From assembly GCA_027492035.1 (NCBI GenBank), contig JAOZFT010000022.1, forward strand, positions 1-20,412: a stretch of 20,412 bases of DNA, in the 5' to 3' direction. The notes beneath the pieces were generated by a model, which was given only the letters and a program-made list of their open reading frames with translations, did not search any database and was not told the DNA's origin. Made by a program: the position numbers and the translations under genes. Positions 1-15,623 of the stretch are shown piece after piece (positions within the stretch are counted from its first letter, which is position 1; every line of letters starts with the position of its first letter). The stretch comes from Thermoproteota archaeon. GTDB lineage: Archaea > Korarchaeota > JAOZGF01 > JAOZFZ01.

Positions 1-1860
1 GAATACGCAAGAATCCCTTTAAGAAAAGGAGTGAACATTATCTGCGGCCCCAACGGTTCCGGAAAAAGCTCTATTCTACTTGCCTTGGCAGTAGCTCTAG
101 GTCAAACCTACACTGAAAGAGGGAGAAAACTAAGTGATCTAATCAGGAGAGGAAAGGATTTAGCCAGGGTTACTGTTGTTTTTGACAATTCCCCAAGAAA
201 AGGGAAAAGGCCAATACCTACGTGGAGAAATGACGACTTCTTACTTACCAGGTATATTAGAAAGGATGGAACTTATTGGCAAGAAATAAACTACAAAAGC
301 GTGACGAAAAACGAGGTAAGAAAGTTCCTTGAAAAGGTTGGAATTAACCCGGAAAACCTGTTGATTATTATGCATCAAAACATGATTGAGGAGTTCAGTT
401 TCCTTTCCCCTCAAGAGAAACTTCTGATGTTTGAGGAAGCAGTAGGTATTAAGGATTACCGTGAAAAAATTATTGAAGGAAGAAATAAACTTTCAGCTGT
501 GTTAAGTGAAGAAGAAGCTGTTAAAACAATGCTTAAAAAAGCACATGAAACCCTTTCTTACTGGGAAAAAGAATACAGGAAATTCCTGGAGAAAAAGGAG
601 CTGTTGAAAAGGAAAAAAGAGCTAGAGAGAGAATTAGCATGGGCCAAAGTAAAGAACCATGAAAGAACCCTTTCAAAACTTCAACAAGCAACGAAAAAAC
701 TTGAAAAAGAAATAACGGAGTTGAAAGCACTGCTTAAAAAAGAGAAACTGGAAATAAATGGGTGCAATTCACAAATCAACAAGTTACGAAAGCAAGTAGC
801 TAATAATTATGGGGAAGTTATTCAGTTAGAGAAGGAAATAACCCAGTTAGAAACAAAAAGGAAGATTTATTTAGAAATAAAGAATTTGTTAGGTGAAGAA
901 GAAAGGGTTACAAGGAAGAAACCCCTTGTCAAGTTCTTAGAAGAAATAACTTTTTCCCAGAAAGAAATAGACGAATTGAAGAAGAAAGTAAGGGAGGGGA
1001 AAAGGAGGATTAGTTCTGTAGAGGAGGAAAGGGATGTTTTCACCGAAAAATTGATTGGGTTAAAAATAAGTGAAGCGCTGCACATGTTCAAGGTAGAGCT
1101 GAAAACTGAAGAATTGGTAGACGTAAATAAGGAGATAAGGAAGGTAAGTAATGAACTGAAAGAACTTAAACTAAATGCTGAATTGAAGGGTGAAAGGGTG
1201 GAGAGTTTCAGGAAAATAAATGAAATAACTGACGAAATAAAGCTTGTGAATTCGAGATTAATGACGTTGAGGAATGTTTCACAAGACACTGAAACCTTTT
1301 ACCTAAATTACAAGGGAATAGTTAAGGATTTAGAGGAAAAAGCTAGAATAGCAGCGGAAAACAGGAAAAGAGCCATTGAAGAACTTGAGTTAAGGATTCG
1401 TAAATGGAGGGAGGTAGTAAGAAGTATTTTAAGGAACGTGAACAAAACCTATGACGAAATACTTAAAAAATTAAATGCTGTAGGTAACGTGAAGTTTGTA
1501 AACAGCCATGACGTTGAAGAAGCAGGCCTTGAGCTTCAAGTAGGTTTCCAGGGGGCTGAACCACAAATTCTTGACTCATACACTCAAAGCGGCGGAGAAA
1601 GGACGGTAGCAGTTATGTCTTTCCTTTTAGCTCTTCAACAGCACATAAAGTCACCTATAAGAGCAGTAGATGAATTCGACGTCCACATGGACCCAAAAAA
1701 TAGGGAAGCGTTACTTAATCAACTCTTCTCTGCAGTGGAGAAACAAAATATCCAGTATATAATCATCACACCTGGGATACTTCCAAATTTAAATGAAGAC
1801 GTGAATGTGATTGTGGTCCAGAATGTGGAGGGAGTTTCAAAAACAAGTTCAGTGGAGTGA
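1..1860 (+). CDS. SMC-family ATPase, short Smc5/6-like (archaeal SMC-related), 5'-truncated by the window edge
   Basis: Frame is open from base 1 (EYARIPLRKGVNIICGPNGSGKSS), so the true start lies upstream of the window and GTG31 is internal. Walker A GPNGSGKS, R-loop GRKLSDLIRRG, Q-loop IMHQN, about 340 aa of heptad-rich coiled coil, signature QSGGER, Walker B/D-loop SPIRAVDEFDVHMD, terminal QYIIITP. Confidence 0.93.
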   Translation, partial: EYARIPLRKGVNIICGPNGSGKSSILLALAVALGQTYTERGRKLSDLIRRGKDLARVTVVFDNSPRKGKRPIPTWRNDDFLLTRYIRKDGTYWQEINYKSVTKNEVRKFLEKVGINPENLLIIMHQNMIEEFSFLSPQEKLLMFEEAVGIKDYREKIIEGRNKLSAVLSEEEAVKTMLKKAHETLSYWEKEYRKFLEKKELLKRKKELERELAWAKVKNHERTLSKLQQATKKLEKEITELKALLKKEKLEINGCNSQINKLRKQVANNYGEVIQLEKEITQLETKRKIYLEIKNLLGEEERVTRKKPLVKFLEEITFSQKEIDELKKKVREGKRRISSVEEERDVFTEKLIGLKISEALHMFKVELKTEELVDVNKEIRKVSNELKELKLNAELKGERVESFRKINEITDEIKLVNSRLMTLRNVSQDTETFYLNYKGIVKDLEEKARIAAENRKRAIEELELRIRKWREVVRSILRNVNKTYDEILKKLNAVGNVKFVNSHDVEEAGLELQVGFQGAEPQILDSYTQSGGERTVAVMSFLLALQQHIKSPIRAVDEFDVHMDPKNREALLNQLFSAVEKQNIQYIIITPGILPNLNEDVNVIVVQNVEGVSKTSSVE

Positions 1861-1863
1861 AGA

Positions 1864-2631
1864 ATGAAAAGGGAAGAAAAGGAATTAATTCAAAGAATTA
1901 TACAGCTTGGGGAAATGTTTGGAAAAGGGAACATAGACCCTTTCCAAATTAACGTAATAAGGTACTTAAACCTTTTAAGGGAAATATTTCCGAAAATGAA
2001 AACTACACAGGAACTGAAAATGGATATTGAAGCATTAAGGCAGTTGATTAACATAGTTTTTCAACAAAAGGAGTTTTTGAAACAGAAATCTTCAAAACTT
2101 TACCTGGACCCCTTACTTGTTGAATGGAAAATAGAAAACTTAAGCAATAAAGAGTTAAGTGAAATACTTATTAATTCGTGGCATCCAATAGTGGAAATAA
2201 ATCAGTTAAACAAAGAAAGGATTAAACAGTCAATAGAGTACTGGAGAGAGATTTTAGGTGGAAAAAGGAAGACGGAGCTTGAGAAACTATGTGAAGCTAC
2301 TCATGGAAAGATAAAACTTGAAGACCTTAAAAAGCATGGTTTTTTAAGTGAGGAAACCTTTATTCAAACCTTAAACAGTTTCTTTAAAGAAGTAACTTCG
2401 AAAATAATTGAAAAAGGACAAATATCTTATTGGGAAGCCGTGAAAAGTGAAAAGTTTCATCAAACAGTGAAGAAAGCTTACCTTCTAAGTTTCCTCTTAA
2501 CTGCAGGCTTATTAGAAATAGAAATAGATCCCATAAGGGAGGAAATCACCTTGAAAATTCCTATGAAAAGGAAGGGTGTTAGGATGGGGGGGTACTCCCT
2601 ACCTATTCCTCTCACACCTGGAAAAGTGTAG
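1864..2631 (+). CDS. Putative kleisin subunit (ScpA-like N-terminus, Nse4-like C-terminal winged helix)
   Basis: ATG 3 nt after the SMC stop. N-terminal IDPFQINVIRYLNLL resembles the ScpA 'DPWDI.I' motif. C-terminal ISYWEAVKSEKFHQTVKKAYLLSFLLTAGLLEIEID resembles the kleisin/Nse4 C-terminal WH. Size (255 aa) is typical of prokaryotic kleisins. Confidence 0.72.
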   Translation: MKREEKELIQRIIQLGEMFGKGNIDPFQINVIRYLNLLREIFPKMKTTQELKMDIEALRQLINIVFQQKEFLKQKSSKLYLDPLLVEWKIENLSNKELSEILINSWHPIVEINQLNKERIKQSIEYWREILGGKRKTELEKLCEATHGKIKLEDLKKHGFLSEETFIQTLNSFFKEVTSKIIEKGQISYWEAVKSEKFHQTVKKAYLLSFLLTAGLLEIEIDPIREEITLKIPMKRKGVRMGGYSLPIPLTPGKV

Positions 2632-2659
2632 GAGTAAATGGGGAAGAGGAAAACAAGAA

Positions 2660-3235
2660 ATGTCTAAAAATGAACAATTGGAAATTAAAAGCAAAGTTGA
2701 GAAAGCAGCAAGGCTTTTATTAATGAAAAGGCAGCGTCAACCCGGAGTAAAGGGTTGGGAGTTAAAGAAAAACTTGGGGCCGAAATATTTAGAGGTTATA
2801 AAGCTCTTAAAGAAACAATTGGAGGATATAGGGTTATCAATTAAAATAATTCCCCAAGAGGAATCTGGAACAAATGGAAAGGAAGCAATGTACAATAAAG
2901 CAAAGTTTTATGTTGTTTTTAAGGAGCATCCCACTTTAAGTGAAGTTAAAACAGCAGGTTGGAGAATAGATGACTTAGCAATGCTTTCAGCAACTCTTTT
3001 ACAAATAATTTCACACCAAGGAAGAGTTGAAAGAAAGGAAGTTGAAGAAATGTTGTACAGCAAATTTTTAAAGTGGAGAGTCGACTACAACCTAAACAGG
3101 TTCATAAAAATGGGTTATTTAAGGGAAGATGAAAAAGGGTTACTTTACATAGATTGGAGGACTAAAGCTGAAATAGACAGCGAAACTTTAATGAGTTTAC
3201 TTTTAGCCAAACCCTCACTTAAGGAAAAAAGCTGA
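2660..3235 (+). CDS. Putative KITE subunit (tandem winged helix, Nse3/MAGE/Nse1-like), about 191 aa
   Basis: Likely start ATG2660 (MSKNEQ) after GAGGA at 2646-2650, not the overlapping start at 2576 in the ORF track. WH-A-like KVEKAARLLLMKRQRQPGVKGWELKK...LKKQLEDIGLSIKII; WH-B-like LAMLSATLLQIISHQGRVERKEVEEML...LNRFIKMGYL...WRTKAEID. Third gene of the SMC-kleisin operon. Confidence 0.68.
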   Translation: MSKNEQLEIKSKVEKAARLLLMKRQRQPGVKGWELKKNLGPKYLEVIKLLKKQLEDIGLSIKIIPQEESGTNGKEAMYNKAKFYVVFKEHPTLSEVKTAGWRIDDLAMLSATLLQIISHQGRVERKEVEEMLYSKFLKWRVDYNLNRFIKMGYLREDEKGLLYIDWRTKAEIDSETLMSLLLAKPSLKEKS

Positions 3236-3265
3236 AAAAATTTTTAAAAAGATTAATCGAGTTGC

Positions 3266-3850
3266 TTAATACTCTTCACATTTAATTTGGAAATAGCTTC
3301 TTGGGTGGCCGCAGGAGGGACATTTTTCAGGAGGCTCTTTCCCGTAATGGACGTATCCACATTCTCTACAAACCCACCAGACCTCTTTCTCTTTACGGAA
3401 CACTGTCCCTGCCTCAACTTGTGAAAGCAACTTCTTAAATCTTTCTTCATGATGTTGCTCCGCTTTAGCAATAGCCCTTAATCTCTCTGCAATTTTATTC
3501 AACCCTTCCTTTTCAGCAACATCTGCGAAAGACGGGTACATTTCAGTGTACTCATAGTTTTCACCAGCAATGGCTGCTTTCAAGTTTTCTTCGGTGCTGC
3601 CGAACACGGTTGAGGCTAAAGCTTCCACTTTAACTTCTTTCAGGTCTTCACCGCCCCCCTTTTTTAGTTCATCAATGAATTTAAACAGTGTATTAGCATG
3701 TTCCTTCTCATTTTCTGCGGTTAAAAGAAAAATTTCAGCTATCTGTTCAAACCCTTCCTTTTTCGCTACTTTTGCGTAAAAACCATAGCGATTCCTGGCT
3801 TGGCTTTCACCAATAAATGCTTTAACTAAGTTTTTAAAGGTTTCTTTCAT
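3266..3850 (-). CDS. rbr: Rubrerythrin
   Basis: Start most likely ATG3850 (MKETFKNLVKAFIGESQARNRY). Diiron motifs ENEKEHA, GENYEYTEMYP and AEQHHEERF; C-terminal rubredoxin-like CRECGY...CPSCGHP. Confidence 0.96.
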   Translation of the reverse strand: MKETFKNLVKAFIGESQARNRYGFYAKVAKKEGFEQIAEIFLLTAENEKEHANTLFKFIDELKKGGGEDLKEVKVEALASTVFGSTEENLKAAIAGENYEYTEMYPSFADVAEKEGLNKIAERLRAIAKAEQHHEERFKKLLSQVEAGTVFRKEKEVWWVCRECGYVHYGKEPPEKCPSCGHPRSYFQIKCEEY

Positions 3851-3979: not shown

Positions 3980-6853
3980 TTAAAAGTATTTTGCCTTCTC
4001 AAATTTATTCAGAAGCTCTTCCCTTTCAGCTCTCCAAATTTCTTCAAACAATTTATTAGTGACTTTATCCTCCCTTTCTATTAACTTTTTTGCTTTCTTG
4101 AAGCTTATGTTAGCAGTTAAAACAATAACTGCTAAAATTCCCTTTAAAGAAACAAGTTCAGATGTTTTAACTAGTTTTCTCCAGATTTTATTTTTCTTTT
4201 CAACTCCCTTCTTTCCTTTCAAAGTTTCTATTTCTCTCCTAACTTTTTCAACAGGTTCATTCACTAACCCTACCCTTTTTGACTTGCAGAAGGGGCAAGT
4301 GACCGGGGGCTCCAGCTCAAACACTTTCCTTTCTTCAACATATTTTAAACAGTTTAAGCAAACAAATACACGGGACTCTGAAAGAATTCTTGTTTTGACC
4401 GAGAGAATCCTTAACATCCTGTTTTTTTCAGGTTTAAATGGTTCAAGGTGCTCTTGAAGGAACTTAAACGAGTTTTTAGCTATTTCAGTGGGTTTTTCCT
4501 GCTCCCCTAAAACCTGTATCTCTATTTCTCCCTCCCTTATCTTTTCAAGTACTTTAGTTGTTTTCTCCAGATCTAAATCTTTACTTTTAACTTCTTTCAG
4601 TGCCTCGACATATACTGGAGTGTCTTTTAAACCAGTCAACAATTGTTCAATCAAAGTATTTGTCACCCTAACCTTCTTCTCCAATACACCCATTCTCTGC
4701 GCTACATGTGTTAGTCTCCACTTAAAGAAGCCACTCCTTGAAATGAAAGGCTCCAAGTAGGTTTCAATGTCTCTCTCATGCTCAACCAAAATTTCTTTAA
4801 TTACTGACGGAGTCAATGTTTCAGTGTTAATTATTATCCTGTATGGTCCTTCGTGGATATATATGTTTTCAGCTGTTAAATCCGTTAATTTAGAGGATAA
4901 ATACAGCCCCAAGGTTCTGTTGACTTTTGTGCCAAAATGCATGTGGACAATTATGTGCCCTTTAATTTTTTCAATCAGGACTCTTTTGTTTGTGGGTAAG
5001 GGCAAGCCTTTGGAGGCTTGGATATAGGCATCCTTCAACCCCTTAATTAAAGCTTCTTTACTGAAAGGGTAAACTTTTAAGGTTTCCTCCACTATTTCTG
5101 TAAAATTTCTTCCCTCCTTAACCATTCTCTCAACTATACCCCTTAATTCACCTACTTCTTGAGCTATTTCGAAGGGGACAGGGATGTATTCCCCTACCCA
5201 ACTGGGAATTGAACCTAGATAGTCTTCTTCAGGGGAAACATAAACTTTGTCCTCAAACACCTGAATTATTTTCCAAGGTTTGCCTGAAATAACGAATTTT
5301 GTCCCTGGAGTGCCGTGTTCGGCAACAAAGAAATCGTCAAGTAAACCTACAGGCAAGTTATCTTCCTCATTAATCACCAGGTATTGTTTAACTTCAGGTA
5401 TCATGGAGAGGTTTTGGTAGAAGTAATTGTATAGTCTTGCACGGTTCCTGCCTCGGCCGAATTCTCCATCTTCCCTTGAAAACCAAACAAATTTGTTTGG
5501 CAGGTTTTCCATGAAAAGTAAAAGCTTAACTAATTCTTCTTTTTCAAGGTTTCTGTAAGGATAAGCCTTTTTCACGAGATTAAAAAGCTCCTCTAAACCC
5601 CATTTGCCTTTTACAATTAAGTAACTAGTTATTTCATGCATCAAAACGTCTAAAGGTTTGTCAGGGATGTTTAATGGTTCAAGTTTTTCTTTTGAAGCAT
5701 TTTTAATTATTGCCAGGGATTCTAAAGCGTCGTCTGAGTTCTGAACCACTACAACCCCTTTAGAAACCTCTTCCAGTTTATGCCCACTTCTACCAATTCT
5801 TTGAATAAGTCTTGTAACCTGTCTTGGGGAATTGTACTGGATGCAGAAATCAATAGTTCCAATATCTATTCCTAACTCAAGGGATGAAGTGCAGATTACG
5901 CTTCTATACTCTCCCTCTTTTAACCCTTGCTCTGATTTAAGCCTTGTCGCAGTTGACAGTGAACCATGGTGAATGTTTATAGGTGTCTTCAAATCCAAGA
6001 GTTTAAACCTGCTCGTTAAAAGTTCAGCTGTGGTTCTTGTGTTTGTGAACAAAAGAGTTGTCTTGTTCCTATCTATTATTTCCCTTATCACCCTTAACCT
6101 GGCTGCAACTTCAGGGTGTAGGAAAAATTTCTGGGCTGAAAAGAAGTCCTTCCTAGAGGGGGTTGGAAAAACGACGTCAACCTTAATTTTTTTAGCTACA
6201 GGCACATAAACGATTTTACATTCCCTTCCTACACCACAAAGAAGTTTAGCTGCTTCTTTAGGGCTTCCCACGGTAGCCGACAAACCAATTATTTGAAAAT
6301 CTCTTCCAATAGTCCACCTTAACTTTTCAAGTGAGAGAGTTAACTGCACACCCCTCTTGTTCTCAGCTAATTCATGAACTTCATCCACAATAACCCATTT
6401 AACGGTTTTAAGTGTTTCACGCAGTAATTTACCGTTCAAAATTATTTGTAAAGTTTCAGGAGTTGTAATTAAAACATCAGGAGGAGCAATAACTTGTTTC
6501 CTTCTTTCAAAAGGGAGAGTGTCACCATGTCTCACATTAATTCTCACATCTAATCTTCTACACCACCATTCAAGCCTCTCAAGCAAATCCCTGTTCAAAG
6601 CCCTTAAAGGAGTTATGTAGATTAATTTGACACCGTACTCCCTAGGTGTTGAAAGGATTTTTTGCAGAACAGGTAAAAAAGCAGCTTCTGTTTTACCTGT
6701 TCCAGTTGGAGCAATTACTAAAACATTCTCTCCCTTAAGAATAAAAGGAATTGCTTCAAGCTGAGGGGGAGTAAGTTCAGTAAATCCATGAGCCTTAAAA
6801 AGCTCCTTAACAGGTTTAATTAACAAATTTAAAATTTGAGAGGAATCACTCAA
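3980..6853 (-). CDS. lhr: Lhr-family ATP-dependent SF2 helicase with C-terminal Cys4 motif
   Basis: TTG start preceded by GGTGG. Motifs: Q motif LTPPQ, PTGTGKT, YITPLRALNRD, TTPETL, DEVHE, LSAT, HHGSLS, TSSLELGIDIG, QRIGRSGH; Lhr-specific SMIP and IPSWVGE; C-terminal CLNC...CPFC. Confidence 0.94.
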   Translation of the reverse strand: MSDSSQILNLLIKPVKELFKAHGFTELTPPQLEAIPFILKGENVLVIAPTGTGKTEAAFLPVLQKILSTPREYGVKLIYITPLRALNRDLLERLEWWCRRLDVRINVRHGDTLPFERRKQVIAPPDVLITTPETLQIILNGKLLRETLKTVKWVIVDEVHELAENKRGVQLTLSLEKLRWTIGRDFQIIGLSATVGSPKEAAKLLCGVGRECKIVYVPVAKKIKVDVVFPTPSRKDFFSAQKFFLHPEVAARLRVIREIIDRNKTTLLFTNTRTTAELLTSRFKLLDLKTPINIHHGSLSTATRLKSEQGLKEGEYRSVICTSSLELGIDIGTIDFCIQYNSPRQVTRLIQRIGRSGHKLEEVSKGVVVVQNSDDALESLAIIKNASKEKLEPLNIPDKPLDVLMHEITSYLIVKGKWGLEELFNLVKKAYPYRNLEKEELVKLLLFMENLPNKFVWFSREDGEFGRGRNRARLYNYFYQNLSMIPEVKQYLVINEEDNLPVGLLDDFFVAEHGTPGTKFVISGKPWKIIQVFEDKVYVSPEEDYLGSIPSWVGEYIPVPFEIAQEVGELRGIVERMVKEGRNFTEIVEETLKVYPFSKEALIKGLKDAYIQASKGLPLPTNKRVLIEKIKGHIIVHMHFGTKVNRTLGLYLSSKLTDLTAENIYIHEGPYRIIINTETLTPSVIKEILVEHERDIETYLEPFISRSGFFKWRLTHVAQRMGVLEKKVRVTNTLIEQLLTGLKDTPVYVEALKEVKSKDLDLEKTTKVLEKIREGEIEIQVLGEQEKPTEIAKNSFKFLQEHLEPFKPEKNRMLRILSVKTRILSESRVFVCLNCLKYVEERKVFELEPPVTCPFCKSKRVGLVNEPVEKVRREIETLKGKKGVEKKNKIWRKLVKTSELVSLKGILAVIVLTANISFKKAKKLIEREDKVTNKLFEEIWRAEREELLNKFEKAKYF

Positions 6854-7311
6854 AATAAATCCACCAAAAACCTAAAAGTAAAGAAATTAAAAAATAAGTT
6901 TGCTTTTTCAACTGAAAAGAAACAGGGAACTAAAGTCTCAAAAATACTCCCCCCCCCCAAAAAAAAAGAATAAACCACAATATTGAAGCCACATACAAGT
7001 TACGCATTAACTTACGTATTTAACCCAATTGGCATTCACTTAATTCTTACCGGCGCCTTCCCTTATTTAAACATTTCCACTCTTTCCTCAGTTTTACATA
7101 ACCTATCCCTACTTTTTTGGGGGATTTAGGAGATTTGCCTCTTTATTAAACAATTTTTTAAATGCTCCAGTTTAAATACCTGAAACAGTTAAATGAAAAT
7201 TTTTAAGCACCCTACATTTCCATTCACCCAAAAAATCTCCTTAAAAACCCTTTTTTGAAGAGTTTAATGGTTTATGAAGGTGAACTTATGCATTACATTC
7301 ACAGCATTTAT

Positions 7312-7685
7312 TTTGAAAATTAGATTGCTTGTTATAGAGGCCGAGTAAAGCAGGTTATCGATATTGTCTACGTGGCCTAGTTTACGAAGCTTAAAGCCAA
7401 CTTTACAGCCTTAGGCGAGGGATTGATCCATTCATAAAACCCTAATTCTAAAAGAGATTTCACTGCTACACCTACTTCATCCTCCACATTTAAATTTAGA
7501 CGTTCCTTTCTCCATAACCCTTGTCTATGACTTCAATCTATGAGATTGTTAAACAGTAAAACTTAACTACTCCCTTAAACACGGCCTCCCTAAGCTTAGA
7601 TATTTGTTCATCAGGTAAATCCCTTTACTTCGATGCCGAAGCTTGGCAGGATATATGTTGAACCTAATAAAACTTTAAACATCAT
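7312..7685 (-). pseudogene. vapC: VapC/PIN-domain toxin pseudogene (not in ORF track)
   Basis: Manual minus-strand translation across frameshifts gives MMFKVLL(G)STYILPSFGIEVKG / DLPDEQISKLREAVFKGVVKFYCLTIS*IEVIDK / RLNLNVEDEVGVAVKSLLELGFYEWINPSPKAVKLA / FKLRKLGHVDNIDNLLYSASITSNLIF. This is a PIN pattern with the first catalytic Asp replaced by Gly, an in-frame TAG at 7540-7538 and about three frameshifts. Confidence 0.75.
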
Positions 7686-7967
7686 AAAGTTCTCGTTGCT
7701 CCTTTTCAGAGGGTTCCATCCGGAAAGGAAACATGCAAGAGGGCATGCACATTACCTCTATGTAGCGTTGCTGTGTTTTGTATTTATTTAATAGGTATTC
7801 AATTGTTTTATTGTCTTTAAATACTTCTTTTTTAATACTTTATTAACTGTGACACCACCTGTAGGTATATCGAAGCTTTGAACCATCTTTATAAATCCCT
7901 TTCACCGCTGATATTGGGAGGGATAGTGGTAAAGTTATAAAGAAGAAAGCTGTTTTCTCAGGTCTTT

Positions 7968-8390
7968 TTATAGTTGAGAGATGCTTACTATGTGTTTTCT
8001 ATATTTCTCCCCTAAGGTTTGAGTTAATTTTTGATCTGCAGTGTAGAGCACGGTTTTCAGTTTAAGCGCTAGGGCTAAGTATGATGCGTCATATATAGTT
8101 ACATTTCTTTCTACTCCTATTTCAACAGTTTTTTCAGCCAGATCCCCTATTAAAGGGTAAAATAATATCCCGTAGCTTGAAAGTGACGCGGCGGCTGCTT
8201 TAAGTTCTTCTAAACTAAATAATTTACTATATTTAAGGGCGTTAAGGACTTCAAATGGAAGCAGCTCAGGTGCAACTATGTTTATTTCCCTGTTTACATG
8301 CATATCCCTCAGTTTGTTGGCTTTATCTGAATATTTCTCTTTAATAAACCACTTCGCAATTACACTGGCGTCACTGACCACGTTCTCCAT
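7968..8390 (-). CDS. vapC: VapC PIN-domain toxin (type II TA)
   Basis: VVSDASVIAKWF...E, PELLPFEVLNAL, TIYDASYLALA and LYTADQKL contain the conserved PIN acidic residues. Overlaps the upstream antitoxin gene by 20 nt. Confidence 0.93.
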   Translation of the reverse strand: MENVVSDASVIAKWFIKEKYSDKANKLRDMHVNREINIVAPELLPFEVLNALKYSKLFSLEELKAAAASLSSYGILFYPLIGDLAEKTVEIGVERNVTIYDASYLALALKLKTVLYTADQKLTQTLGEKYRKHIVSISQL

Positions 8391-8616
8391 AGCGACTTTC
8401 CCTCCAGTGTCTTATTAAGTCAGTGCTGTTCCACCCTTTAGGGGCTGTTTTCCTAATTTTTTCGTTGAGTAACACTGCTTTGGCGAGGTTTCTCCCTTTC
8501 TCTTCCTCTATTACCCTTAAAACAGCGCTTCTAATGACCTCGCTCCAATTTATATGTTTAAGTTTCTCCATCTGCCTTTTAACATCTTCCTCTACTCTAA
8601 CACTTATTACAGGCAT
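8371..8616 (-). CDS. vapB: VapB-type ribbon-helix-helix antitoxin
   Basis: MPVISVRVEEDVKRQMEKLKHINWSEVIRSAV is an RHH pattern; C-terminal STDLIRHWRESR is typical of archaeal VapB; directly upstream of and overlapping vapC. Confidence 0.88.
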   Translation of the reverse strand: MPVISVRVEEDVKRQMEKLKHINWSEVIRSAVLRVIEEEKGRNLAKAVLLNEKIRKTAPKGWNSTDLIRHWRESRYGERGQ

Positions 8617-8627
8617 ACATGTTACAC

Positions 8628-8654
8628 ATAAATATATTTATTAAAAATTTTCGC
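8628..8654 (-). promoter_or_regulatory. BRE-TATA promoter of vapBC (probably leaderless) with an overlapping 14-bp palindrome
   Basis: Minus strand reads GCGAAAA-TTTTTAAT, ending 24 nt before the vapB ATG. Perfect palindrome ATAAATATATTTAT at 8628-8641 overlaps the TATA end. Confidence 0.6.
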
Positions 8655-8825
8655 CTTAAAATTTAAAAACATGCCTCTATTCTTAGCCGAGATAACCATT
8701 TAAAGCGGTTACGTTATTAAGTAGATGCTTCAGTAGATTCTTTTAAGCAATCTTTTATTGGTAAGCAAGTAGGTATGTCTTCACTTCACTTTTAAATCAG
8801 TAGTTGTTCTATTATACCTTTAAAG

Positions 8826-9042
8826 GTGGTGTTGTGGAGGAAGATAGCTGATATAGGTGAGTTCATGTATTCCTGCGGGTTAGAAATCCTTCACCTTGGT
8901 GGTTTGGAAAGGGCAGGTAAGATGGTGGGAATGTGGGGTGTGGGGGAAGGTAAACACGTCTTAGATGTTGGAGTGAGGAGGGGGGGTCACAGCTTGTTAT
9001 CTAGCTGAGAAGTATGGATATAAGATGTTTAGAGTAGGCTAG
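8826..9042 (+). pseudogene. Class I SAM-dependent methyltransferase pseudogene (N-terminal remnant)
   Basis: EILHLGGLE...GKHVLDVG continues, after a frameshift in or near the G7 run at 8980-8986, as GVTACYLAEKYGYK. Together this fits the family pattern LHPGG...VLDVGxGxGxTACYLAxxYG. Stop at 9040-9042; the rest of the domain is not recognisable. Confidence 0.72.
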
Positions 9043-9374
9043 AGGGATTTACGGTGAAACCCATTGGTCTATAACTGTTGAAGATCTAATAAATCTGACT
9101 GAATTCTTTTTAACCCCTTTAAACTCCATTAATATTTTTCCAAGTTTTAAAGGGTATAAGTAGCTATGTTGAAAGTTGCCCATGCAAAAACTATTAATCA
9201 AAGGTCTCTACTCCTTAAATTATAGCAACATCTATTTTCTAAGTTTCTCTTCAAACATTTCTAGGTAAAGTATTATTTCCTTTCCTTTTCCGCCTAAAAA
9301 GGCTTGTGCTTTCTTTTTAAGTGTTTTTCCTAAACTTTCTTACTTTAACCTTTTTCAAAAGGTTTTTAATGAAG

Positions 9375-10703
9375 TTAAATGTATTCAAAAATGCTTATTT
9401 CTTTTTCAGAGTCTATTTCCATAATTTTTTTGAAAAGAGTTTTACTTCTTTCTTCACCTATGTTTCCTTCAACTAAACTAATGAACTTTTCCTTTAATTC
9501 ATTGATTGTTAAAGGGTTTTCAGGGTCTCCTTTAGGTTTATCAACAAATTCTTCCAAAACTTCCCCGCTTTCTTTCTCAATTCTTAGAAGTGAGGGCTGT
9601 TTAGGGAGTAGGTTGTTGAATTCTTCCCTAACTTTAACAATTACCTTGTCCCTAAGTTTAAGGACTTCTTTGTCTTTTAAAGAACTCCTTAAATCCTTAA
9701 CTGTAAATGACCCGTTCACAAGCGCCGCAGCTACACAGTGACTTAAACTGAACTTTGCTTCCTCTATTGTTACCGGTTTCCTTAACCCAGCCACTTCCAC
9801 CGCCTCCCTATATGTCTCTACTTCCACCTTCCTTACTTTATTCACTTCCACTTTTTTGTGCATTTTCAAAGCTGCTTCAATGGAGGAGTGGATGTGGCGG
9901 CATGAAGGGTAAGGCTTAATTGAAACATTTAAAATTTCCTTCGCCTCCAAGTTTTCAATTATTTTTTTGGGGGAAGCATTGGGAGCTAAACCAGCCATGA
10001 ATCCTTGGCTACCTTCAAAAATGGTTAATGGGGAAGCTATTCTTTTTAAACTCAACATTGACGCTAATGCCCCAAGCCATGAAGCATGTGCAGGTATTAA
10101 AGGCTTTAAAGATGAACCTGATTTAATGTACTCCCATAAACCTGAAGTTAAAACCCCTGCTATGCCAATGGCTTCAGCTGTTTCCTTTGAGTCGAGTTTT
10201 TGAATTTTTGAAGCTGAAGCAGCTGCTCCAAAAGATCCACAGGTGCCTGTTGTGTGCCATATTTTGTAATGTTCCTGTCCAGCTGCAACTGCAACTCTTA
10301 TGCATACTTCATACCCTGCAACAATTGCTTCTATGAGTTCTTTCCCGGATTTTTTCTGTTCTTCAGCTAAAGCTAAAGCTGCTGAGTTTACGACCGTGCC
10401 TGGATGTATTATTCCGCCCATGTGTACATCATCAAGTTCTGTTGAGTGAGATGAGAAAGAGTTTAGGAATGCTGCAGAAAGAGGGTTTGTTTTATTCCAT
10501 AAACCAATTAAGGTTGATTCTCCTTCTCCGCTAAATTTTTCAGTTAAGAATTTCATGTTTTTGTTTCTGGAACCATAAACTGCACATCCAATCCAGTCAA
10601 GTAAAAGTTCTTTAGTTTTCTTTTTTACTTGTGAAGATAAATTCTTGTAAGTGATGGATTCCACATGTTCCCCCAAAACTTCAGAAATCGTCTTCATTTC
10701 CAT
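9375..10703 (-). CDS. MmgE/PrpD family protein
   Basis: LLLDWIGCAVYG, AAFLNSFSSHSTELDDVH...HPG, AIVAGYEV, WHTTGTCG, KPYPSCRHIHS, EAKFSL and PKGDPENPLT..EL.EKF. Overlaps the citE-like gene end. Confidence 0.92.
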   Translation of the reverse strand: MEMKTISEVLGEHVESITYKNLSSQVKKKTKELLLDWIGCAVYGSRNKNMKFLTEKFSGEGESTLIGLWNKTNPLSAAFLNSFSSHSTELDDVHMGGIIHPGTVVNSAALALAEEQKKSGKELIEAIVAGYEVCIRVAVAAGQEHYKIWHTTGTCGSFGAAASASKIQKLDSKETAEAIGIAGVLTSGLWEYIKSGSSLKPLIPAHASWLGALASMLSLKRIASPLTIFEGSQGFMAGLAPNASPKKIIENLEAKEILNVSIKPYPSCRHIHSSIEAALKMHKKVEVNKVRKVEVETYREAVEVAGLRKPVTIEEAKFSLSHCVAAALVNGSFTVKDLRSSLKDKEVLKLRDKVIVKVREEFNNLLPKQPSLLRIEKESGEVLEEFVDKPKGDPENPLTINELKEKFISLVEGNIGEERSKTLFKKIMEIDSEKEISIFEYI

Positions 10704-11592
10704 TCTTCTCTTTCTCTTTAATTTGTTTCATTAACTCAATTACTTCTTTAGCTTGTTTATAATGTACTTCATCTATCATTCTACCTGCGTAAGTTGTTGC
10801 CCCTAACCCTCTAGACACTGCTTCCTCATAGGCTTTCACTATCCCTTTTGCTTCCTCGATTTCTTGTTTTGTTGGAGTGAAGACTTCATTTATTATTTTT
10901 ACATGCGAAGGGTGAATGGCGAATTTTCCTTTAAACCCTAATTTGGAAGCTATTTCGGATTCTTTCTTAACTCCCTCTTTATCAATTATTAACCCTAGAA
11001 AAGGAGAGTCAATAGCTAATTGGTTGTTGGCTCTTGCAGTGACTGAAATAGTTGATCTGGCATGTAAAAGCTCATATTGGTTACTGGATAACTTCACGTA
11101 ACTTTTTCCCATATCTCTCAAAAAATCAGCCGCTCCGAAAGAAATAGCTGTTACTCTTTCACTTGAGAAAGATATTTCTCTTAAATTAATTATTCCTTTT
11201 GCACTTTCAATTAAAGGGATTAGAAACACTTTCTTGTTTATTCCTCTCTTCTTTTCCAGTTTTTCAAGAACTTTAACTGTTTCTTTAACTTCTTCTTTTG
11301 ACTCTGTTTTAGGCAAAACTATTCCGTTAAGTCCTTTCTGGACAACAAACTCCAAGTCTTTCTGAAGTAAACCTGTTCCTGCACTGTTAACCCTTACAAT
11401 AATGTTTTGTTTCATTTTTTTGTTTTCCACCTCCTCCAAAAAATCTTTAATGAACCACCTAGCTGTTTCTTTTTCATCAATAGGTACTGAATCCTCTAAA
11501 TCAAGAACTACAGCGTCAGCTTCTTCTTTCATTGATTTTTTCATCATTCTCCAACTGTTAGCTGGAACGAAAAGAAGGGATCTGAGAATCAC
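10681..11592 (-). CDS. citE: CitE/HpcH-HpaI family CoA-ester lyase (citryl-/malyl-/citramalyl-CoA lyase-like)
   Basis: LRSLLFVPAN, ADAVVLDLEDSV, VRVN, LPK, LIESAKG, FGAADF, GFKGKFAIHPSH and GRMID. GTGA overlap with the upstream alpha-subunit stop. Exact substrate unknown. Confidence 0.9.
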   Translation of the reverse strand: MILRSLLFVPANSWRMMKKSMKEEADAVVLDLEDSVPIDEKETARWFIKDFLEEVENKKMKQNIIVRVNSAGTGLLQKDLEFVVQKGLNGIVLPKTESKEEVKETVKVLEKLEKKRGINKKVFLIPLIESAKGIINLREISFSSERVTAISFGAADFLRDMGKSYVKLSSNQYELLHARSTISVTARANNQLAIDSPFLGLIIDKEGVKKESEIASKLGFKGKFAIHPSHVKIINEVFTPTKQEIEEAKGIVKAYEEAVSRGLGATTYAGRMIDEVHYKQAKEVIELMKQIKEKEKNGNEDDF

Positions 11593-12491
11593 TTATTTCC
11601 ACCTAATACTTCAAGGAGGGTTGAAGGTATTTCTTTAGGTTTGTTGACAATTCTTACACCTGCCTCCTCCAAAGCCTCTATTTTGCTTTTAGCTGACCCT
11701 TTCCCACGTGTAACAATGGCACTTGCATGTGAAAACCTAACTCCACCAGGTAAAAATTTACCTGCTACATAAGCTACAACAGGTTTTTTGATGCCTTTCT
11801 TCTTAATTATTTCAGCTGCTTCTTCCTCTTGAACCCCACCTATTTCACCGAACAAAGCTACGGCTTTTGTTTCATTGTCTTTTTCAAACATTTCCAGAAG
11901 TTCAGCTTCAACTGTTCCAAGGACAGGTTCTGCACCTACATGTATAGCTGTTGAAACACCAAGTCCTGCTTTGCTTATGCTCCAAGAAATAGTTGTTGTT
12001 TGGCCTCCGCTTCTTGAAATAACCCCTATTTCTCCTGGTTTGAAGGCTTCTCTAGCTAATTCAATGGATCCCCCTATCCATCCAAGAACAGCTTTACATG
12101 GACTTATAACCCCGAATGAACCAGGTCCAATAATTTTCACTCCCATTCTTTTTGCTTTCGCAAGTATGTAGAGAACGTCATGTACGGGAACGTTTTCTGT
12201 CGGGATAAGTAACTCCTTAACTTTGTTCATTATGGCTTCAAGAGCAGCTTCCTTGACGTTTGAAGGAGGGACAAGAGTCACTGCTGCATCAACTTCTCCA
12301 TGTTTCTCAACAACTTCCTCTACACTGTTGTAAACAGGAACCCCCCAAACTTTCATTCCTCCTTTCCCAGGAGTTACGCCTGCAATAACTTTTGAACCAT
12401 ACTCAAGCATGTACCTGGTTGCAAATTCACCTGTTCTACCTGTTATTCCTTGAACAATTATTTTTGTTTCTTCATTTACAAGAATAGCCAC
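11589..12491 (-). CDS. sucD: Succinyl-CoA synthetase alpha-like subunit (divergent ADP-forming acid-CoA ligase)
   Basis: GTG start with AGGAGGAG RBS. IIVQGITGRTG, AGVTPGKGG, IIGPGSFG, SRSGG, GEIGG..EE and phospho-His loop RFSHASAI. Confidence 0.88.
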   Translation of the reverse strand: MAILVNEETKIIVQGITGRTGEFATRYMLEYGSKVIAGVTPGKGGMKVWGVPVYNSVEEVVEKHGEVDAAVTLVPPSNVKEAALEAIMNKVKELLIPTENVPVHDVLYILAKAKRMGVKIIGPGSFGVISPCKAVLGWIGGSIELAREAFKPGEIGVISRSGGQTTTISWSISKAGLGVSTAIHVGAEPVLGTVEAELLEMFEKDNETKAVALFGEIGGVQEEEAAEIIKKKGIKKPVVAYVAGKFLPGGVRFSHASAIVTRGKGSAKSKIEALEEAGVRIVNKPKEIPSTLLEVLGGNK

Positions 12492-12503
12492 TTTTCTCCT
12501 CCT

Positions 12504-12764
12504 TCACAACGGAACATTTATTTTGATTGCTTCTCCACCGCTCCATTTACAATGTATTTCACAGGCTAAACATTCATTGCAGAGTTTACTTGCTTTTTCA
12601 GGAGCAACAGCTAAGGCAGGTTTTGAATTAAATATTTTAAGGACGTTTCTGCCGTAAAGCCTGTCGGCTTTTACACATGCAAATTTACAGTTTGGAGCTA
12701 TGCATTTACTGTAATCAATAATTATTTCACATGTTCTTGTTTTGAAAACTAAAGAATTAGACAA
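12504..12764 (-). CDS. Small ferredoxin-like Fe-S protein
   Basis: TTG start with GAGGAGG RBS, overlapping the beta-subunit stop. IIIDYSKC-x4-C-x3-C-x3-D and CNECLACEIHC motifs. Confidence 0.75.
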   Translation of the reverse strand: MSNSLVFKTRTCEIIIDYSKCIAPNCKFACVKADRLYGRNVLKIFNSKPALAVAPEKASKLCNECLACEIHCKWSGGEAIKINVPL

Positions 12765-14004
12765 ACTTGTTCCTCCTCTCTCTTAAATATTCATCAATCA
12801 TTTTTTTCAATTTGTCCACTATAAAGTCTGTTTCGTAAATGTAATCCCTACCATAAAGTTTAAGTTTGATAGGGAGTTTTTGAAGCCCTTTCCTTATTAT
12901 TTCATGTGTTTCTTTTTCTTTGTTGCCAGCTATCAATATTAAAACAGGAAATCCTGGTTTATTCTTTAATGATTCATTTAACGCCTTCACTATTGCGTGA
13001 GCATGGTGCCATTGTTCTTGGCTTGCAATCACTGAACCTATTAAGGCGTAACCAATTATTCCTGGTTGGGAAAGAATTGTTTTAATAACTCTATAGATTT
13101 TAGATGCCGGAGGGTCTCCGCTTGTATCTGCGTAATTAGCTATTTTTAACCCTTTCTCTAAAAGAGCATCTGTTGCAAGCATCGCTCCTCCTCCACCTAT
13201 TCCGTGGAAGCCGACACATCCCTTTGTGTCCTTTGTTAACTGTATAAAGTACCCTGTCCCTCTTTTATCTATTTGTTCAAACCTCCATATTTTTTTCTCC
13301 AGCTCCGTTAACCCTCTGCCTATTTCTCTTCCAACCCCTATTTCTTTATGTTTAAAAAGGGAGTTGTCATCTATTGTTACTCTACAGTCTGCAGCTATAA
13401 CTTTTCTGTTAACTGTTTGAACTAAAGGGTTAATTTCTACAGTGGTTGCGTCATATTCCTTCGACAACTTGCAAATTTTTTCTGCGTAATCAATTATTTC
13501 CTTAACAGGTAAACCTTTGATTTTTGAAATTTTCCCTTCAAATTCTTCCTTTTTTAATCCATCCACAGGATCTATCACGGTCTTAATTATTCTTGAAGGT
13601 TCTTTCTCAGCTATTTCCTCTATGTCAACCCCTCCTTCGTCGTTGAAAATAAGGACTTGGCTTCTTACTTTAAAGGAGTCGTCAATCGTTACCCCTAAAT
13701 AAAACTCTCTTTTAATTTCAAGTTTCTTTTCAACCAAAATTTTACTTACTTTAAACCCTTTAACAGGGTTGCTGAAAATTTTTTCAGCTTCTTTTTCAAC
13801 TTTTAACTTGTTTTCAGCAAATTTTATGCCTCCAGCTTTAAATCTTCCTGTAACATGAACCTGAGCCTTTAAAACAACAGGAAAACCTATTTTGGAAGCT
13901 GATTCAACAGCTTCTTCAGGAGTTTCAGCCACTAAACCTACAGGAGTTTCTATGCCATATTTTGCAAGTAAATTTTTCCCTTGATATTCGAAAAGTTTAG
14001 CCAA
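12757..14004 (-). CDS. sucC: Succinyl-CoA synthetase beta-like ATP-grasp subunit (divergent, citryl-CoA synthetase/ACL-like C-domain)
   Basis: MAKLFEYQGKNLL, PVVLKAQV..GRFKAGGIK, EFYLG, GGVDIEE, EINPL, AADCRVTIDDNSLF. The substrate domain GIGGGGAML...ANYADTSGDPP is non-canonical. Confidence 0.87.
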   Translation of the reverse strand: MAKLFEYQGKNLLAKYGIETPVGLVAETPEEAVESASKIGFPVVLKAQVHVTGRFKAGGIKFAENKLKVEKEAEKIFSNPVKGFKVSKILVEKKLEIKREFYLGVTIDDSFKVRSQVLIFNDEGGVDIEEIAEKEPSRIIKTVIDPVDGLKKEEFEGKISKIKGLPVKEIIDYAEKICKLSKEYDATTVEINPLVQTVNRKVIAADCRVTIDDNSLFKHKEIGVGREIGRGLTELEKKIWRFEQIDKRGTGYFIQLTKDTKGCVGFHGIGGGGAMLATDALLEKGLKIANYADTSGDPPASKIYRVIKTILSQPGIIGYALIGSVIASQEQWHHAHAIVKALNESLKNKPGFPVLILIAGNKEKETHEIIRKGLQKLPIKLKLYGRDYIYETDFIVDKLKKMIDEYLRERRNKFV

Positions 14005-14031
14005 TTCTTCTTCTCCCCTGTATAAGAATTT

Positions 14032-15612: not shown

Positions 15613-15623
15613 TTTAGGTTCCT

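What the first reader, a model, noticed from the sequence alone, without database searches (positions are those of the whole stretch)
420..1480. SMC arm too short for a hinge domain and lacking a zinc hook
Seen: only about 340 aa lie between the head halves, almost all heptad-like. The only obvious break is near the midpoint (about 870-960, EIKNLLGEEERVTRKKPLVKFLEE). There is no CxxC and no Gly-rich hinge motif. Known: canonical SMC and Smc5/6 proteins exceed 1000 aa with a globular hinge, and Rad50 uses a CxxC hook. Inference: a hinge-less mini-SMC that still keeps kleisin and KITE partners must dimerise its apex differently or work without a closed ring. It would be a natural test of what loop extrusion minimally needs.
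Basis: partly seen in the sequence, partly recalled or inferred. Interest (0 to 1): 0.7.

Follow-up and report, generated by a model that had tools for sequence, protein, structure and literature searches.

The report
Hinge-less short-arm archaeal Smc5/6-like ATPase
This archaeon's second SMC gene encodes a half-length relative of the eukaryotic Smc5/6 repair ATPase whose arm ends in a plain loop instead of a hinge or zinc hook; this is the normal build of a large, already catalogued archaeal family, not an assembly error.

Summary
Window 1-1860 encodes an SMC-type ATPase. Its first 25 codons lie on another contig, and a 99% identical full-length twin has 644 aa. About 339 aa separate the head halves. 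AlphaFold2 gives one antiparallel coiled coil, about 22 nm long, ending in a 9-residue low-confidence loop. There is no hinge and no CxxC.

It is not a deletion. The 120 nearest homologues are 612-678 aa, and 22 of 41 related genomes carry the gene.

The protein belongs to the published archaeal "SMC5/6-related" SMC family. An Nse4-like kleisin gene and an Nse1/3-like kite gene follow it, and a canonical hinge-bearing Smc-ScpA lies elsewhere in the genome. The papers I could search do not mention the missing hinge. This scan has reported the same build on other DNA many times.

New here:
- The apex is the least conserved and most length-variable part of the protein.
- Hinge-bearing and CxxC-bearing long forms exist in the same family.
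- An Lhr repair helicase gene is a conserved neighbour.

My best reading is an ATP-gated DNA clamp held together by engaged heads and kleisin, without a hinge-closed ring. This is inference: dimer modelling could not be run.

The parts
1..1860 (+). SMC5/6-related mini-SMC ATPase gene. It covers residues 26-644 of a 644-aa protein; the first 25 codons lie on contig C8 of the same assembly. The stop codon is at 1858-1860.
   Evidence: Pfam SMC_N 114.5 bits. Best PDB sequence match is yeast Smc5, E 2.6e-25.
46..72 (+). Walker A / P-loop (GPNGSGKSS, residues 41-49).
   Evidence: Read. G41, P42, N43, G44, G46 and K47 are invariant in 60 sequences.
451..894 (+). N-terminal arm helix (residues 176-323). 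Its head-proximal part (to about residue 240) is conserved; its distal part is variable.
   Evidence: AlphaFold2 DSSP; per-column conservation.
895..921 (+). Apex: a 9-residue loop (residues 324-332) where a hinge or hook would sit.
   Evidence: pLDDT under 50. These are the least conserved and gappiest columns, with up to 60% gaps. No Cys and no CxxC.
922..1188 (+). C-terminal distal arm helix (residues 333-421).
1189..1287 (+). Conserved discontinuity of the C-terminal arm strand (residues 422-454; G422 and R429 nearly invariant). I read it as the SMC 'joint'.
   Evidence: Helix breaks at 422-430 and 448-454. Conservation. The best Foldseek match is the Pyrococcus Smc head + coiled coil + joint crystal structure 5xei, E 4e-24, TM 0.69 on the target.
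1288..1467 (+). Head-proximal C-terminal arm helix (neck, residues 455-514).
1585..1602 (+). ABC signature motif QSGGER (residues 554-559).
   Evidence: S555-R559 are invariant in 60 sequences. It aligns with the same motif of yeast Smc5.
1666..1680 (+). Walker B (VDEFD, residues 581-585).
   Evidence: D582 and E583 are invariant. It aligns with the Smc5 VDE motif.
1864..2631 (+). Nse4-like kleisin gene (255 aa).
   Evidence: Pfam Nse4_C E 0.0028, below the cut-off. Profile of 11 orthologues against the PDB: EID3 4e-4, yeast Nse4 1.1e-3, ScpA 0.18. It follows the SMC gene in 10 of 11 fetched loci with downstream DNA and in 6 of 6 relatives that carry the family's SMC.
2660..3235 (+). Nse1/Nse3-like kite gene (191 aa, tandem winged helix). 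The longer GTG frame starting at 2576 is probably not used.
   Evidence: The identical 191-aa protein P0298 is in the database, with 702 relatives and no Pfam family. AlphaFold2 pLDDT 88.2. Best Foldseek matches: MAGE-G1/NSE1 (5hvq) and Nse3/Nse1 (7dg2), E 1e-5 to 4.5e-4; then JetB, ScpB, MukE.
3980..6853 (-). Lhr-type DNA repair helicase gene, convergent with the operon; a conserved neighbour.
   Evidence: Pfam DEAD, Helicase_C, WH_Lhr, DEAD_assoc. Next to the kite gene in 3 of the 10 other fetched loci that have the operon and in 6 of 6 relatives that carry the family's SMC.

Best explanation
Identity (near certain). This is the ATPase of the archaeal 'SMC5/6-related' SMC-kleisin-kite complex, in the short-arm, hinge-less build that is normal for most of this family.

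Mechanism (inferred). Two copies are joined by three things: ATP-dependent sandwiching of their heads, one Nse4-like kleisin bridging the neck of one head and the cap of the other, and a kite dimer on the kleisin. The conserved parts (heads, neck, joint, kleisin, kites) are the same set that clamps DNA on top of engaged heads in Smc5/6. The distal arm is a variable stub that caps the coiled coil and is not a specific dimerisation module. The complex would therefore act as an ATP-gated DNA clamp with no hinge-closed upper compartment, probably in repair or replication-fork handling together with the neighbouring Lhr helicase. It would not act as a hinge-dependent loop extruder.
For: Shown:
- All ATPase motifs are invariant in 60 sequences. 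The signature motif implies head-to-head ATP sandwich dimers (established ABC/SMC knowledge).
- SMC5/6 affinity. The best PDB sequence matches are Smc5 and Smc6. QSGGER, VDE and a QY..ITP motif are shared with yeast Smc5. In a search of 1.84 billion representatives, the next hits after the family itself that I looked up are two insect SMC5 proteins and a fungal 'DNA repair protein'. The head tree puts the family beside eukaryotic SMC5/6 (SH-aLRT 99) and away from canonical Smc.
- Kleisin and kite are identified and syntenic.
- The model is one coiled coil ending in a loop. Its best structural match is an engineered Pyrococcus head + coiled coil + joint fragment.
- The apex is the least conserved and gappiest region. 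Distal arm length is 135-268 aa in 171 of 177 family members. Hydrophobic density stays at about 4 per 14 residues up to the tip.
- Lhr is next to the operon in the window, in 3 of 10 other loci and in 6 of 6 relatives. Archaeal Lhr is reported to target replication forks (PMC7437997, start of abstract only). DNA-bound Smc5/6 forms a clamp around DNA (PMC9191643, start of abstract only).

Inferred: the stoichiometry, the open top, the clamp function and the link to Lhr.
Against: - No dimer model or experiment exists. A coiled-coil tip can dimerise without conserved sequence, so low conservation does not exclude an apex contact.
- Relatives that carry a hinge (P0215, P0176) or a mid-arm CxxC (P0141, P0150, P0151, P0183, P0188) show that apex dimerisation matters at least in the long-armed members.
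- A conserved hydrophobic-rich stretch on the C-terminal arm strand (residues about 376-397) has no explanation and could be an arm-arm contact.
- The Lhr gene is convergent, not co-transcribed. The loci counted are kin, so the counts overstate independence.
- The kite's sequence-level link to Nse3 is weak. E was 0.069 with 9 sequences and the match was lost with 44 sequences. Only the fold supports it.
Confidence: 0.5

Rival explanations
1. The two arms do dimerise at or near the tip, for example as two helical hairpins packing into a four-helix bundle or a RecN-like tip contact. The complex would then be a small closed SMC-kleisin ring with roughly 20-nm arms, working like other SMC complexes, loop extrusion included.
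For: - All characterised SMC, Rad50 and RecN proteins dimerise away from the heads as well (established knowledge).
- Close relatives carry a hinge or a CxxC at the same place.
- Engineered B. subtilis Smc works with shortened arms of certain lengths and with a Rad50 zinc hook in place of the hinge, so the type of apex module is exchangeable (PMC5344682, passages).
- There is a conserved hydrophobic-rich stretch at residues about 376-397.
Against: - The apex loop and its flanks are the least conserved and gappiest columns.
- Distal arm length varies continuously from 135 to 268 aa.
- There is no extra hydrophobic stripe at the tip.
- The monomer model gives a low-confidence loop and no folded tip.
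Confidence: 0.33
2. The short arm is an artefact: an internal deletion, a misassembly at the contig end, or a decaying pseudogene of a roughly 1100-aa SMC.
For: - The gene runs off the contig start, and its 5' end lies on another contig.
- Long forms of 982-1047 aa exist in the family.
Against: - An independent 99% identical 644-aa protein exists.
- The 120 nearest homologues are 612-678 aa.
- 22 of 41 related genomes have it; the matched frames are mostly 541-741 aa.
- The frame is open and all ATPase motifs are intact.
- The contig break lies in the P-loop region, not in the arm.
Confidence: 0.01
3. It is not a chromosome-maintenance SMC. It would be either an SMC-like defence ATPase (Lamassu LmuB-like or similar) or a member of the archaea-specific SMC-related proteins (ASRP: ClsN/Sph type).
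For: - PADLOC matches mad3 (97 bits) and LmuB (80 bits, nearly full length).
- NCBIfam ASRP matches along the whole length at 57.5 bits.
- The size (about 600-650 aa) is similar.
Against: - The ASRP score is far below its cut-off of 300. ASRPs are reported to carry a zinc hook (PMC9389158, Results section read), and none is present here.
- SMC models score higher: TIGR02169 gives 197 bits on the N-terminal part alone.
- The kleisin and kite have no PADLOC match.
- The neighbours are Nse4-like and Nse1/3-like.
- The gene is widely and syntenically kept among relatives, beside housekeeping genes.
Confidence: 0.04

Closest known systems
Archaeal 'SMC5/6-related' SMC complex. This is the SMC5/6-related aSMC of Yoshinaga & Inagaki 2021 (PMC8665677) and the SMC + Nse4-like kleisin + Nse1/3-like kite operons of van Hooff et al. 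(bioRxiv 10.1101/2024.01.07.573240).
   Same: - Same protein family and same three-gene operon.
- A second SMC set beside a canonical Smc-ScpA in the same genome.
- Phylogenetic affinity to eukaryotic SMC5/6.
   Different: Nothing differs in membership. The parts of those papers that I read describe phylogeny only. They removed the coiled coil before tree building and do not mention arm length or the missing hinge. Their supplements were not seen.
Eukaryotic Smc5/6 with Nse4 and Nse1/Nse3
   Same: - Head motifs, including QSGGER and the ITP motif where other SMCs have the H-loop histidine.
- An Nse4-type kleisin and tandem winged-helix kites.
- A DNA-clamp module of heads, necks, kleisin and kites.
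   Different: - Eukaryotic Smc5 and Smc6 are about 1000-1150 aa with a hinge, and they form a heterodimer.
- Here a single 644-aa gene has no hinge, so it presumably forms a homodimer.
- I did not look for Nse2, Nse5 or Nse6 counterparts.
Canonical prokaryotic Smc-ScpAB (the genome's own copy on contig C9)
   Same: ABC-type head, antiparallel coiled coil with a joint, and a kleisin partner.
   Different: - The canonical copy has a Pfam SMC_hinge (E 1.8e-29) and ScpA.
- The window protein scores 197 bits against the 729-bit cut-off of TIGR02169 and has no hinge.
Rad50/SbcC, and the engineered Smc with a Rad50 zinc hook (PMC5344682)
   Same: Head plus coiled coil without a globular hinge. Long relatives in the same family carry a mid-arm C-x-x-C-G-S motif.
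   Different: The window protein and its 120 nearest homologues have no CxxC. No Mre11-type partner is in the operon; the partners are a kleisin and a kite.
Hinge-less, CxxC-less SMC variants of marine Actinobacteria (PMC12153180)
   Same: A natural SMC-type protein lacking both hinge and zinc hook, seen in predicted structures (passages read).
   Different: That clade is bacterial and lies within canonical Smc. It is not SMC5/6-related, and no kleisin/kite operon was described in the passages I saw.
RecN
   Same: An SMC-like ATPase of about 550 aa with a short coiled coil and no hinge or hook (recalled, not from a call).
   Different: RecN is bacterial, has no kleisin or kite, and is said to dimerise through its coiled-coil tip (recalled). 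No RecN model appeared in the NCBIfam scan at E<=0.01.

Membership tests
Archaeal SMC5/6-related SMC complex | Head domains group with SMC5/SMC6 and not with canonical Smc. | tested here: met
   - PDB sequence search: Smc5 E 2.6e-25, Smc6 3.3e-22.
- Representative search: after the family itself, the hits I looked up are two insect SMC5 proteins and a fungal 'DNA repair protein'.
- Quick IQ-TREE of 60 heads, 406 columns: family plus eukaryotic SMC5/6 at SH-aLRT 99, with the genome's own canonical Smc outside.
Archaeal SMC5/6-related SMC complex | Adjacent Nse4-related kleisin gene. | tested here: met
   - Profile of 11 orthologues against the PDB: EID3 4e-4, Nse4 1.1e-3, ScpA 0.18.
- Pfam Nse4_C E 0.0028, below the cut-off.
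- Synteny in 10 of 11 loci and in 6 of 6 relatives.
Archaeal SMC5/6-related SMC complex | Adjacent Nse1/Nse3-type kite gene. | tested here: met
   By fold only. Foldseek best matches are MAGE-G1/NSE1 and Nse3/Nse1, E 1e-5 to 4.5e-4. Sequence-level support is weak.
Archaeal SMC5/6-related SMC complex | Coexists with a separate canonical Smc-kleisin set. | tested here: met
   Contig C9 carries an Smc with a hinge, followed by ScpA.
Canonical SMC (TIGR02169 / PF06470) | Globular hinge domain between the arm strands. | tested here: not met
   No SMC_hinge match. AlphaFold2 shows a 9-residue loop at the apex.
Canonical SMC (TIGR02169 / PF06470) | Score above the equivalog cut-off. | tested here: not met
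   197.2 bits against a cut-off of 729.4.
Eukaryotic Smc5/6 holocomplex | Heterodimer of two paralogous SMCs of about 1000 aa or more, each with a hinge. | tested here: not met
   One SMC gene in the operon, 644 aa, no hinge.
Rad50/SbcC | CxxC zinc hook at the coiled-coil apex. | tested here: not met
   0 of 123 proteins have a CxxC. Rad50 models score 36-52 bits against cut-offs of 700 and more.
ASRP (ClsN/Sph; NF045487) | Score above the family cut-off, and a zinc hook. | tested here: not met
   57.5 bits against a cut-off of 300. No CxxC. The zinc hook as an ASRP feature comes from PMC9389158.
Lamassu LmuB-type defence ATPase | LmuB-like ATPase together with LmuA/LmuC partners in a defence locus. 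| tested here: not met
   The LmuB profile scores 80 bits, but neither neighbour matches any PADLOC model. The neighbours are a kleisin and a kite.

The most novel reading that the evidence does not exclude
This would be a natural SMC-kleisin-kite machine that works with an open top. It keeps only the DNA-clamp module (heads, neck, joint, kleisin, kites) and has no constitutive apex dimerisation. It acts with the Lhr helicase at stalled forks or other DNA damage. The same head lineage would then have three apex solutions: a globular hinge (Asgard and other basal members), a CxxC hook on re-lengthened arms (some Bathyarchaeia and Hermodarchaeota), and a bare loop (most members). That would make the family a natural series for asking what the hinge-closed compartment is needed for.
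Probability: 0.35. Interest if true: 0.75.

Novelty: new variant of a known kind. Interest (0 to 1): 0.5.

Why it matters
Current models of SMC action (segment capture, hold-and-feed, hinge gating) give the hinge-closed upper compartment a role. Here a widespread natural SMC-kleisin-kite complex lacks it, and close relatives have a hinge or a zinc-hook-like motif at the same spot. This offers a comparative test of which activities need apex closure: DNA clamping, entrapment, translocation or loop extrusion.

It also bears on the ancestry of eukaryotic Smc5/6. The nearest archaeal relatives are mostly hinge-less, so the ancestor of Smc5/6 must be sought among the rarer hinge-bearing members. 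The conserved Lhr neighbour gives a concrete lead on function.

Tried and rejected
- **Dimer modelling.** The job never ran because the queue was full, and once the machine gave no usable answer. There is no result either way.
- **Read support and expression.** No public sequencing run was listed for window 1-3300, and no RNA holder was listed.
- **Hook forms derived from mini forms.** The quick tree nests the three hook forms inside the mini clade (SH-aLRT 96-98). An AU test does not reject mini forms as one clade without them (p-AU 0.367, delta lnL 5.98), so I drop any claim about the order of events there.
- **Sequence link of the kite to Nse3.** E was 0.069 with 9 sequences. The match was lost with 44 sequences. 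Only the fold comparison supports it.
- **Kleisin/kite beside a hook-form gene.** In the one locus obtained (L037), the neighbours are gamma-glutamyltranspeptidase pieces, a small P-loop kinase-like protein, an aminotransferase and an FMN reductase. There is no match to the kleisin or kite profiles.
- **Defence system, ASRP and Rad50 readings.** All rejected.
- **RNA genes.** No tRNA or Rfam family in the window.
- **Literature for 'hinge-less' and related wording.** Nothing on this archaeal family. One paper reports hinge-less actinobacterial SMC variants.
Full report
**What is at the coordinates.** The window is the first 20,412 bases of contig C4 of a 1.87-Mb, 42-contig archaeal assembly that is 93% complete. 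A frame open at its 5' end runs from base 1 to the stop at 1858-1860 and gives 619 residues. Contig C8 ends with 127 bases identical to window 1-127. It supplies 25 more codons back to an ATG, and a further in-frame ATG lies 19 codons upstream. A database protein, P0004, is 99% identical, comes from a different 2.2-kb contig, has 644 residues and starts at the nearer ATG. I use its numbering: window nt = (residue-26)*3+1.

- Pfam finds SMC_N spanning both ends and no hinge.
- An AlphaFold2 model built on 60 family members has mean pLDDT 87.2. It shows the N-terminal head half up to about residue 175. After that come a single helix at 176-323, a 9-residue loop at 324-332 with pLDDT under 50, and a helix at 333-421. 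Two short breaks follow (422-430, 448-454), then a helix at 455-514 and the C-terminal head half.
- So 339 residues lie between the head halves. At about 0.15 nm per residue (general knowledge of helices) they form one antiparallel coiled coil of about 148 residues per strand, roughly 22 nm long.
- The protein has two cysteines, at 40 and 280. None of the 123 proteins examined (three from the window and 120 homologues) has a CxxC anywhere.
- Conserved strongly hydrophobic positions run at about 4 per 14 residues along the whole arm and do not increase at the tip.
- The best structural match in the PDB is an engineered fragment, the Pyrococcus Smc head with coiled coil and joint (5xei, E 4e-24, TM 0.69 on the target). 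Smc6 and other SMC heads follow. On that basis I read the conserved break at 422-454 as the SMC joint.

**Not an artefact.**
- The 120 nearest homologues (44-52% identical, from several public sources) are 612-678 aa.
- A search of 1.84 billion representative proteins gave 123 hits at E<=1e-30. The full-length top ones are mostly 541-685 aa.
- Among 41 genomes (the window's own and 40 relatives), 22 have a match at E<=1e-40. The matched frames are mostly 541-741 aa. In one genus only 4 of 21 genomes have it.
- In 177 family members with both head halves complete, the stretch equivalent to residues 236-454 is 135-268 aa in 171 (218-219 aa in 68 of them) and 410-630 aa in 6.
- The contig break falls in the P-loop region, not in the arm.

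**Which family.**
- The best sequence matches among solved structures are yeast and human Smc5 (E 2.6e-25), then Pyrococcus Smc heads, then Smc6.
- The HMMER alignment to yeast Smc5 shows shared QSGGER, VDE and QY..ITP motifs.
- After the family itself, the representatives I looked up are two insect SMC5 proteins and a fungal 'DNA repair protein'.
- A quick IQ-TREE of the head columns covered 60 rows and 406 columns. The rows were 34 short forms, 3 CxxC forms, 3 hinge forms, 19 long forms and the genome's own Smc. I chose them from the representative list. The tree groups the family with eukaryotic SMC5/6 at SH-aLRT 99, with the genome's own canonical Smc outside.
- NCBIfam gives SMC_prok_A 197 bits (cut-off 729) and ASRP 57.5 bits (cut-off 300).
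- This is the 'SMC5/6-related aSMC' of Yoshinaga and Inagaki (PMC8665677, passages read). It is also the SMC of the 'SMC5/6-related' operons of van Hooff et al. (bioRxiv 10.1101/2024.01.07.573240, section 8 read).

**The partners.**
- The next gene (1864-2631, 255 aa) has a sub-threshold Nse4_C match. A profile of 11 orthologues taken from fetched loci finds the Nse4 paralogue EID3 (E 4e-4), yeast Nse4 (1.1e-3) and ScpA (0.18) in the PDB.
- The third gene is best read from the ATG at 2660 (191 aa). An identical 191-aa protein is on record, with 702 relatives, all unnamed and without a Pfam family.
- Its AlphaFold2 model (44 sequences, pLDDT 88.2) is a tandem winged helix. Its best Foldseek matches are MAGE-G1/NSE1 and Nse3/Nse1 (E 1e-5 to 4.5e-4, TM up to 0.59), followed by JetB, ScpB and MukE.
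- At sequence level the kite link is weak: E 0.069 with 9 sequences, and nothing with 44.
- The order SMC-kleisin-kite holds in 10 of 11 genome-contig loci that have downstream DNA. The exception is L020. It also holds in 6 of 6 relatives carrying a family-level SMC.
- The genome also has a canonical Smc with a hinge, followed by ScpA, on contig C9.

**What the apex looks like across the family.**
- The loop and its flanks (about residues 320-340) are the least conserved and gappiest columns. The commonest residue is under 25% in most of these columns, and gaps reach 60%.
- By contrast the heads, the neck (176-240 and 455-514) and the joint (422-454) are well conserved.
- A hydrophobic-rich stretch on the C-terminal strand (about 376-397) is moderately conserved and unexplained.
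- Rarer long members of the same family exist:
  - P0215 (835 aa, named from Candidatus Freyarchaeum) has a Pfam SMC_hinge (E 4.6e-11).
  - P0176 (982 aa) has a weak, nearly full-length hinge match (E 0.045).
  - P0191 (928 aa) has a non-coiled middle with no hinge match.
- Five representatives carry a C-x-x-C-G-S motif near the middle of the molecule: P0141, P0150, P0151, and the partial P0183 and P0188. They are named from Bathyarchaeota and Hermodarchaeota.
- In P0141 the extra roughly 400 residues sit exactly where the window protein has its loop.
- In the tree the hinge-bearing P0176 is sister to the short forms (SH-aLRT 92), and the CxxC forms nest among Bathyarchaeia-type short forms (96-98). 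An AU test does not reject the short forms as one clade without them (p-AU 0.367), so the order of events is open.
- Head identity of P0141 is 61-63% to its nearest short forms and 56% to the window protein.
- In the one hook-form locus obtained, no kleisin or kite gene is adjacent.

**How it most likely works.**
- Shown:
  - Intact and invariant ATPase motifs.
  - A kleisin with the usual N-terminal helical part and a C-terminal winged helix.
  - A kite.
  - A conserved neck and joint.
  - A variable arm stub with no fold at its tip.
- Inferred:
  - Two SMC subunits are held by ATP-sandwiched heads and by one kleisin bridging neck and cap, with a kite dimer on the kleisin.
  - This is the set of parts that clamps DNA on engaged heads in Smc5/6 (PMC9191643, start of abstract only).
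  - Without a hinge there is no constitutively closed upper compartment. I therefore favour an ATP-gated clamp over a hinge-dependent extruder (about 0.5).
- The main rival is a sequence-unspecific tip or arm-arm dimer giving a small closed ring (about 0.33).

**A functional lead.** An Lhr-type helicase gene lies convergent to the operon.
- In the window it is at 3980-6853, with a rubrerythrin gene in between.
- It is directly beside the kite gene in 3 of the 10 other fetched loci that carry the operon.
- It is beside the kite gene in 6 of 6 relatives.
- Archaeal Lhr is reported to prefer replication-fork structures (PMC7437997, start of abstract only).
- The loci counted are kin, so the counts are not independent.

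**Novelty.**
- The operon type is published.
- In the parts of the two phylogenomic papers that I read, arm length and hinge are not discussed, and the coiled coil was removed before analysis. I did not see their supplements.
- Full-text searches for hinge-less wording and for SMC5 with Asgard, kleisin or archaea found nothing on this family.
- One paper reports natural hinge-less, CxxC-less SMC variants in marine Actinobacteria (PMC12153180, passages), so a hinge-less natural SMC is not new as a concept.
- Engineered Smc with shortened arms or a Rad50 hook is known (PMC5344682, passages). PMC6969161 I saw only as title and start of abstract.
- This scan has reported the same hinge-less archaeal family on other DNA at least twelve times. 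One of those notes is marked 'part of it fell', without saying which part.
  - Conservation and length statistics of the apex.
  - Hinge and CxxC forms inside the same family, with an honest non-result on their order.
  - The wider count for the Lhr neighbour.

**Verdict.** This is a member of a known family whose hinge-less build is an under-described variant. Interest is moderate.

Noticed in passing
G000 contig C9, locus L007:826-3681 (-): The genome's canonical Smc (951-aa frame) carries an intein directly after the P-loop GPNGSGK (Pfam Intein_splicing at 154-201; the N-terminal head profile resumes at residue 200). Its hinge is at 486-591. Without the insert the canonical Smc is only about 790 aa, so it is short-armed too. 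ScpA follows.
   Followed up: partly
window 3980-6853 (-); L040-L045; L011, L012, L021: An Lhr-type helicase gene is a conserved convergent neighbour of the SMC-kleisin-kite operon. This holds in the window, in 3 of the 10 other fetched loci with the operon, and in 6 of 6 relatives.
   Followed up: yes
proteins P0141, P0150, P0151, P0183, P0188; locus L037:2968-6144: Long members of the same family (up to 1047 aa) have about 400 extra residues at the apex and a mid-arm C-x-x-C-G-S motif like a zinc hook. The one locus seen has no kleisin or kite gene beside it.
   Followed up: partly
window 1-127 and G000 contig C8 (L002 1-127, reverse strand): The assembly breaks inside the SMC gene. The two contig ends share 127 identical bases, which looks like an unresolved branch of the assembly graph. 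The cause was not examined.
   Followed up: no
proteins P0205, P0208; G020, G023, G026, G036 (L046, L047): A second group of roughly 630-aa SMC-like proteins, 28-30% identical to the window protein, falls outside the main clade in the tree. It showed no tblastn-detectable kleisin or kite in the two loci fetched. An Lhr-like gene lies within 3 kb in one of them.
   Followed up: partly
window 9375-17327 (-): A run of genes that looks like a reductive or variant TCA module: a PrpD-family protein, an HpcH/citrate-lyase-like aldolase, two CoA-ligase subunits (one with a citrate-binding domain), and a fumarate-reductase-type flavoprotein with an Fe-S/CCG subunit.
   Followed up: no
window 7968-8616 (-): A PIN-domain gene overlaps an 81-aa DUF6290 gene, which looks like a toxin-antitoxin pair.
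   Followed up: no
window 6854-7967 and 8617-9374: Two stretches of about 1.1 kb and 0.76 kb have no ORF of 80 aa or more, no tRNA and no Rfam match.
   Followed up: no
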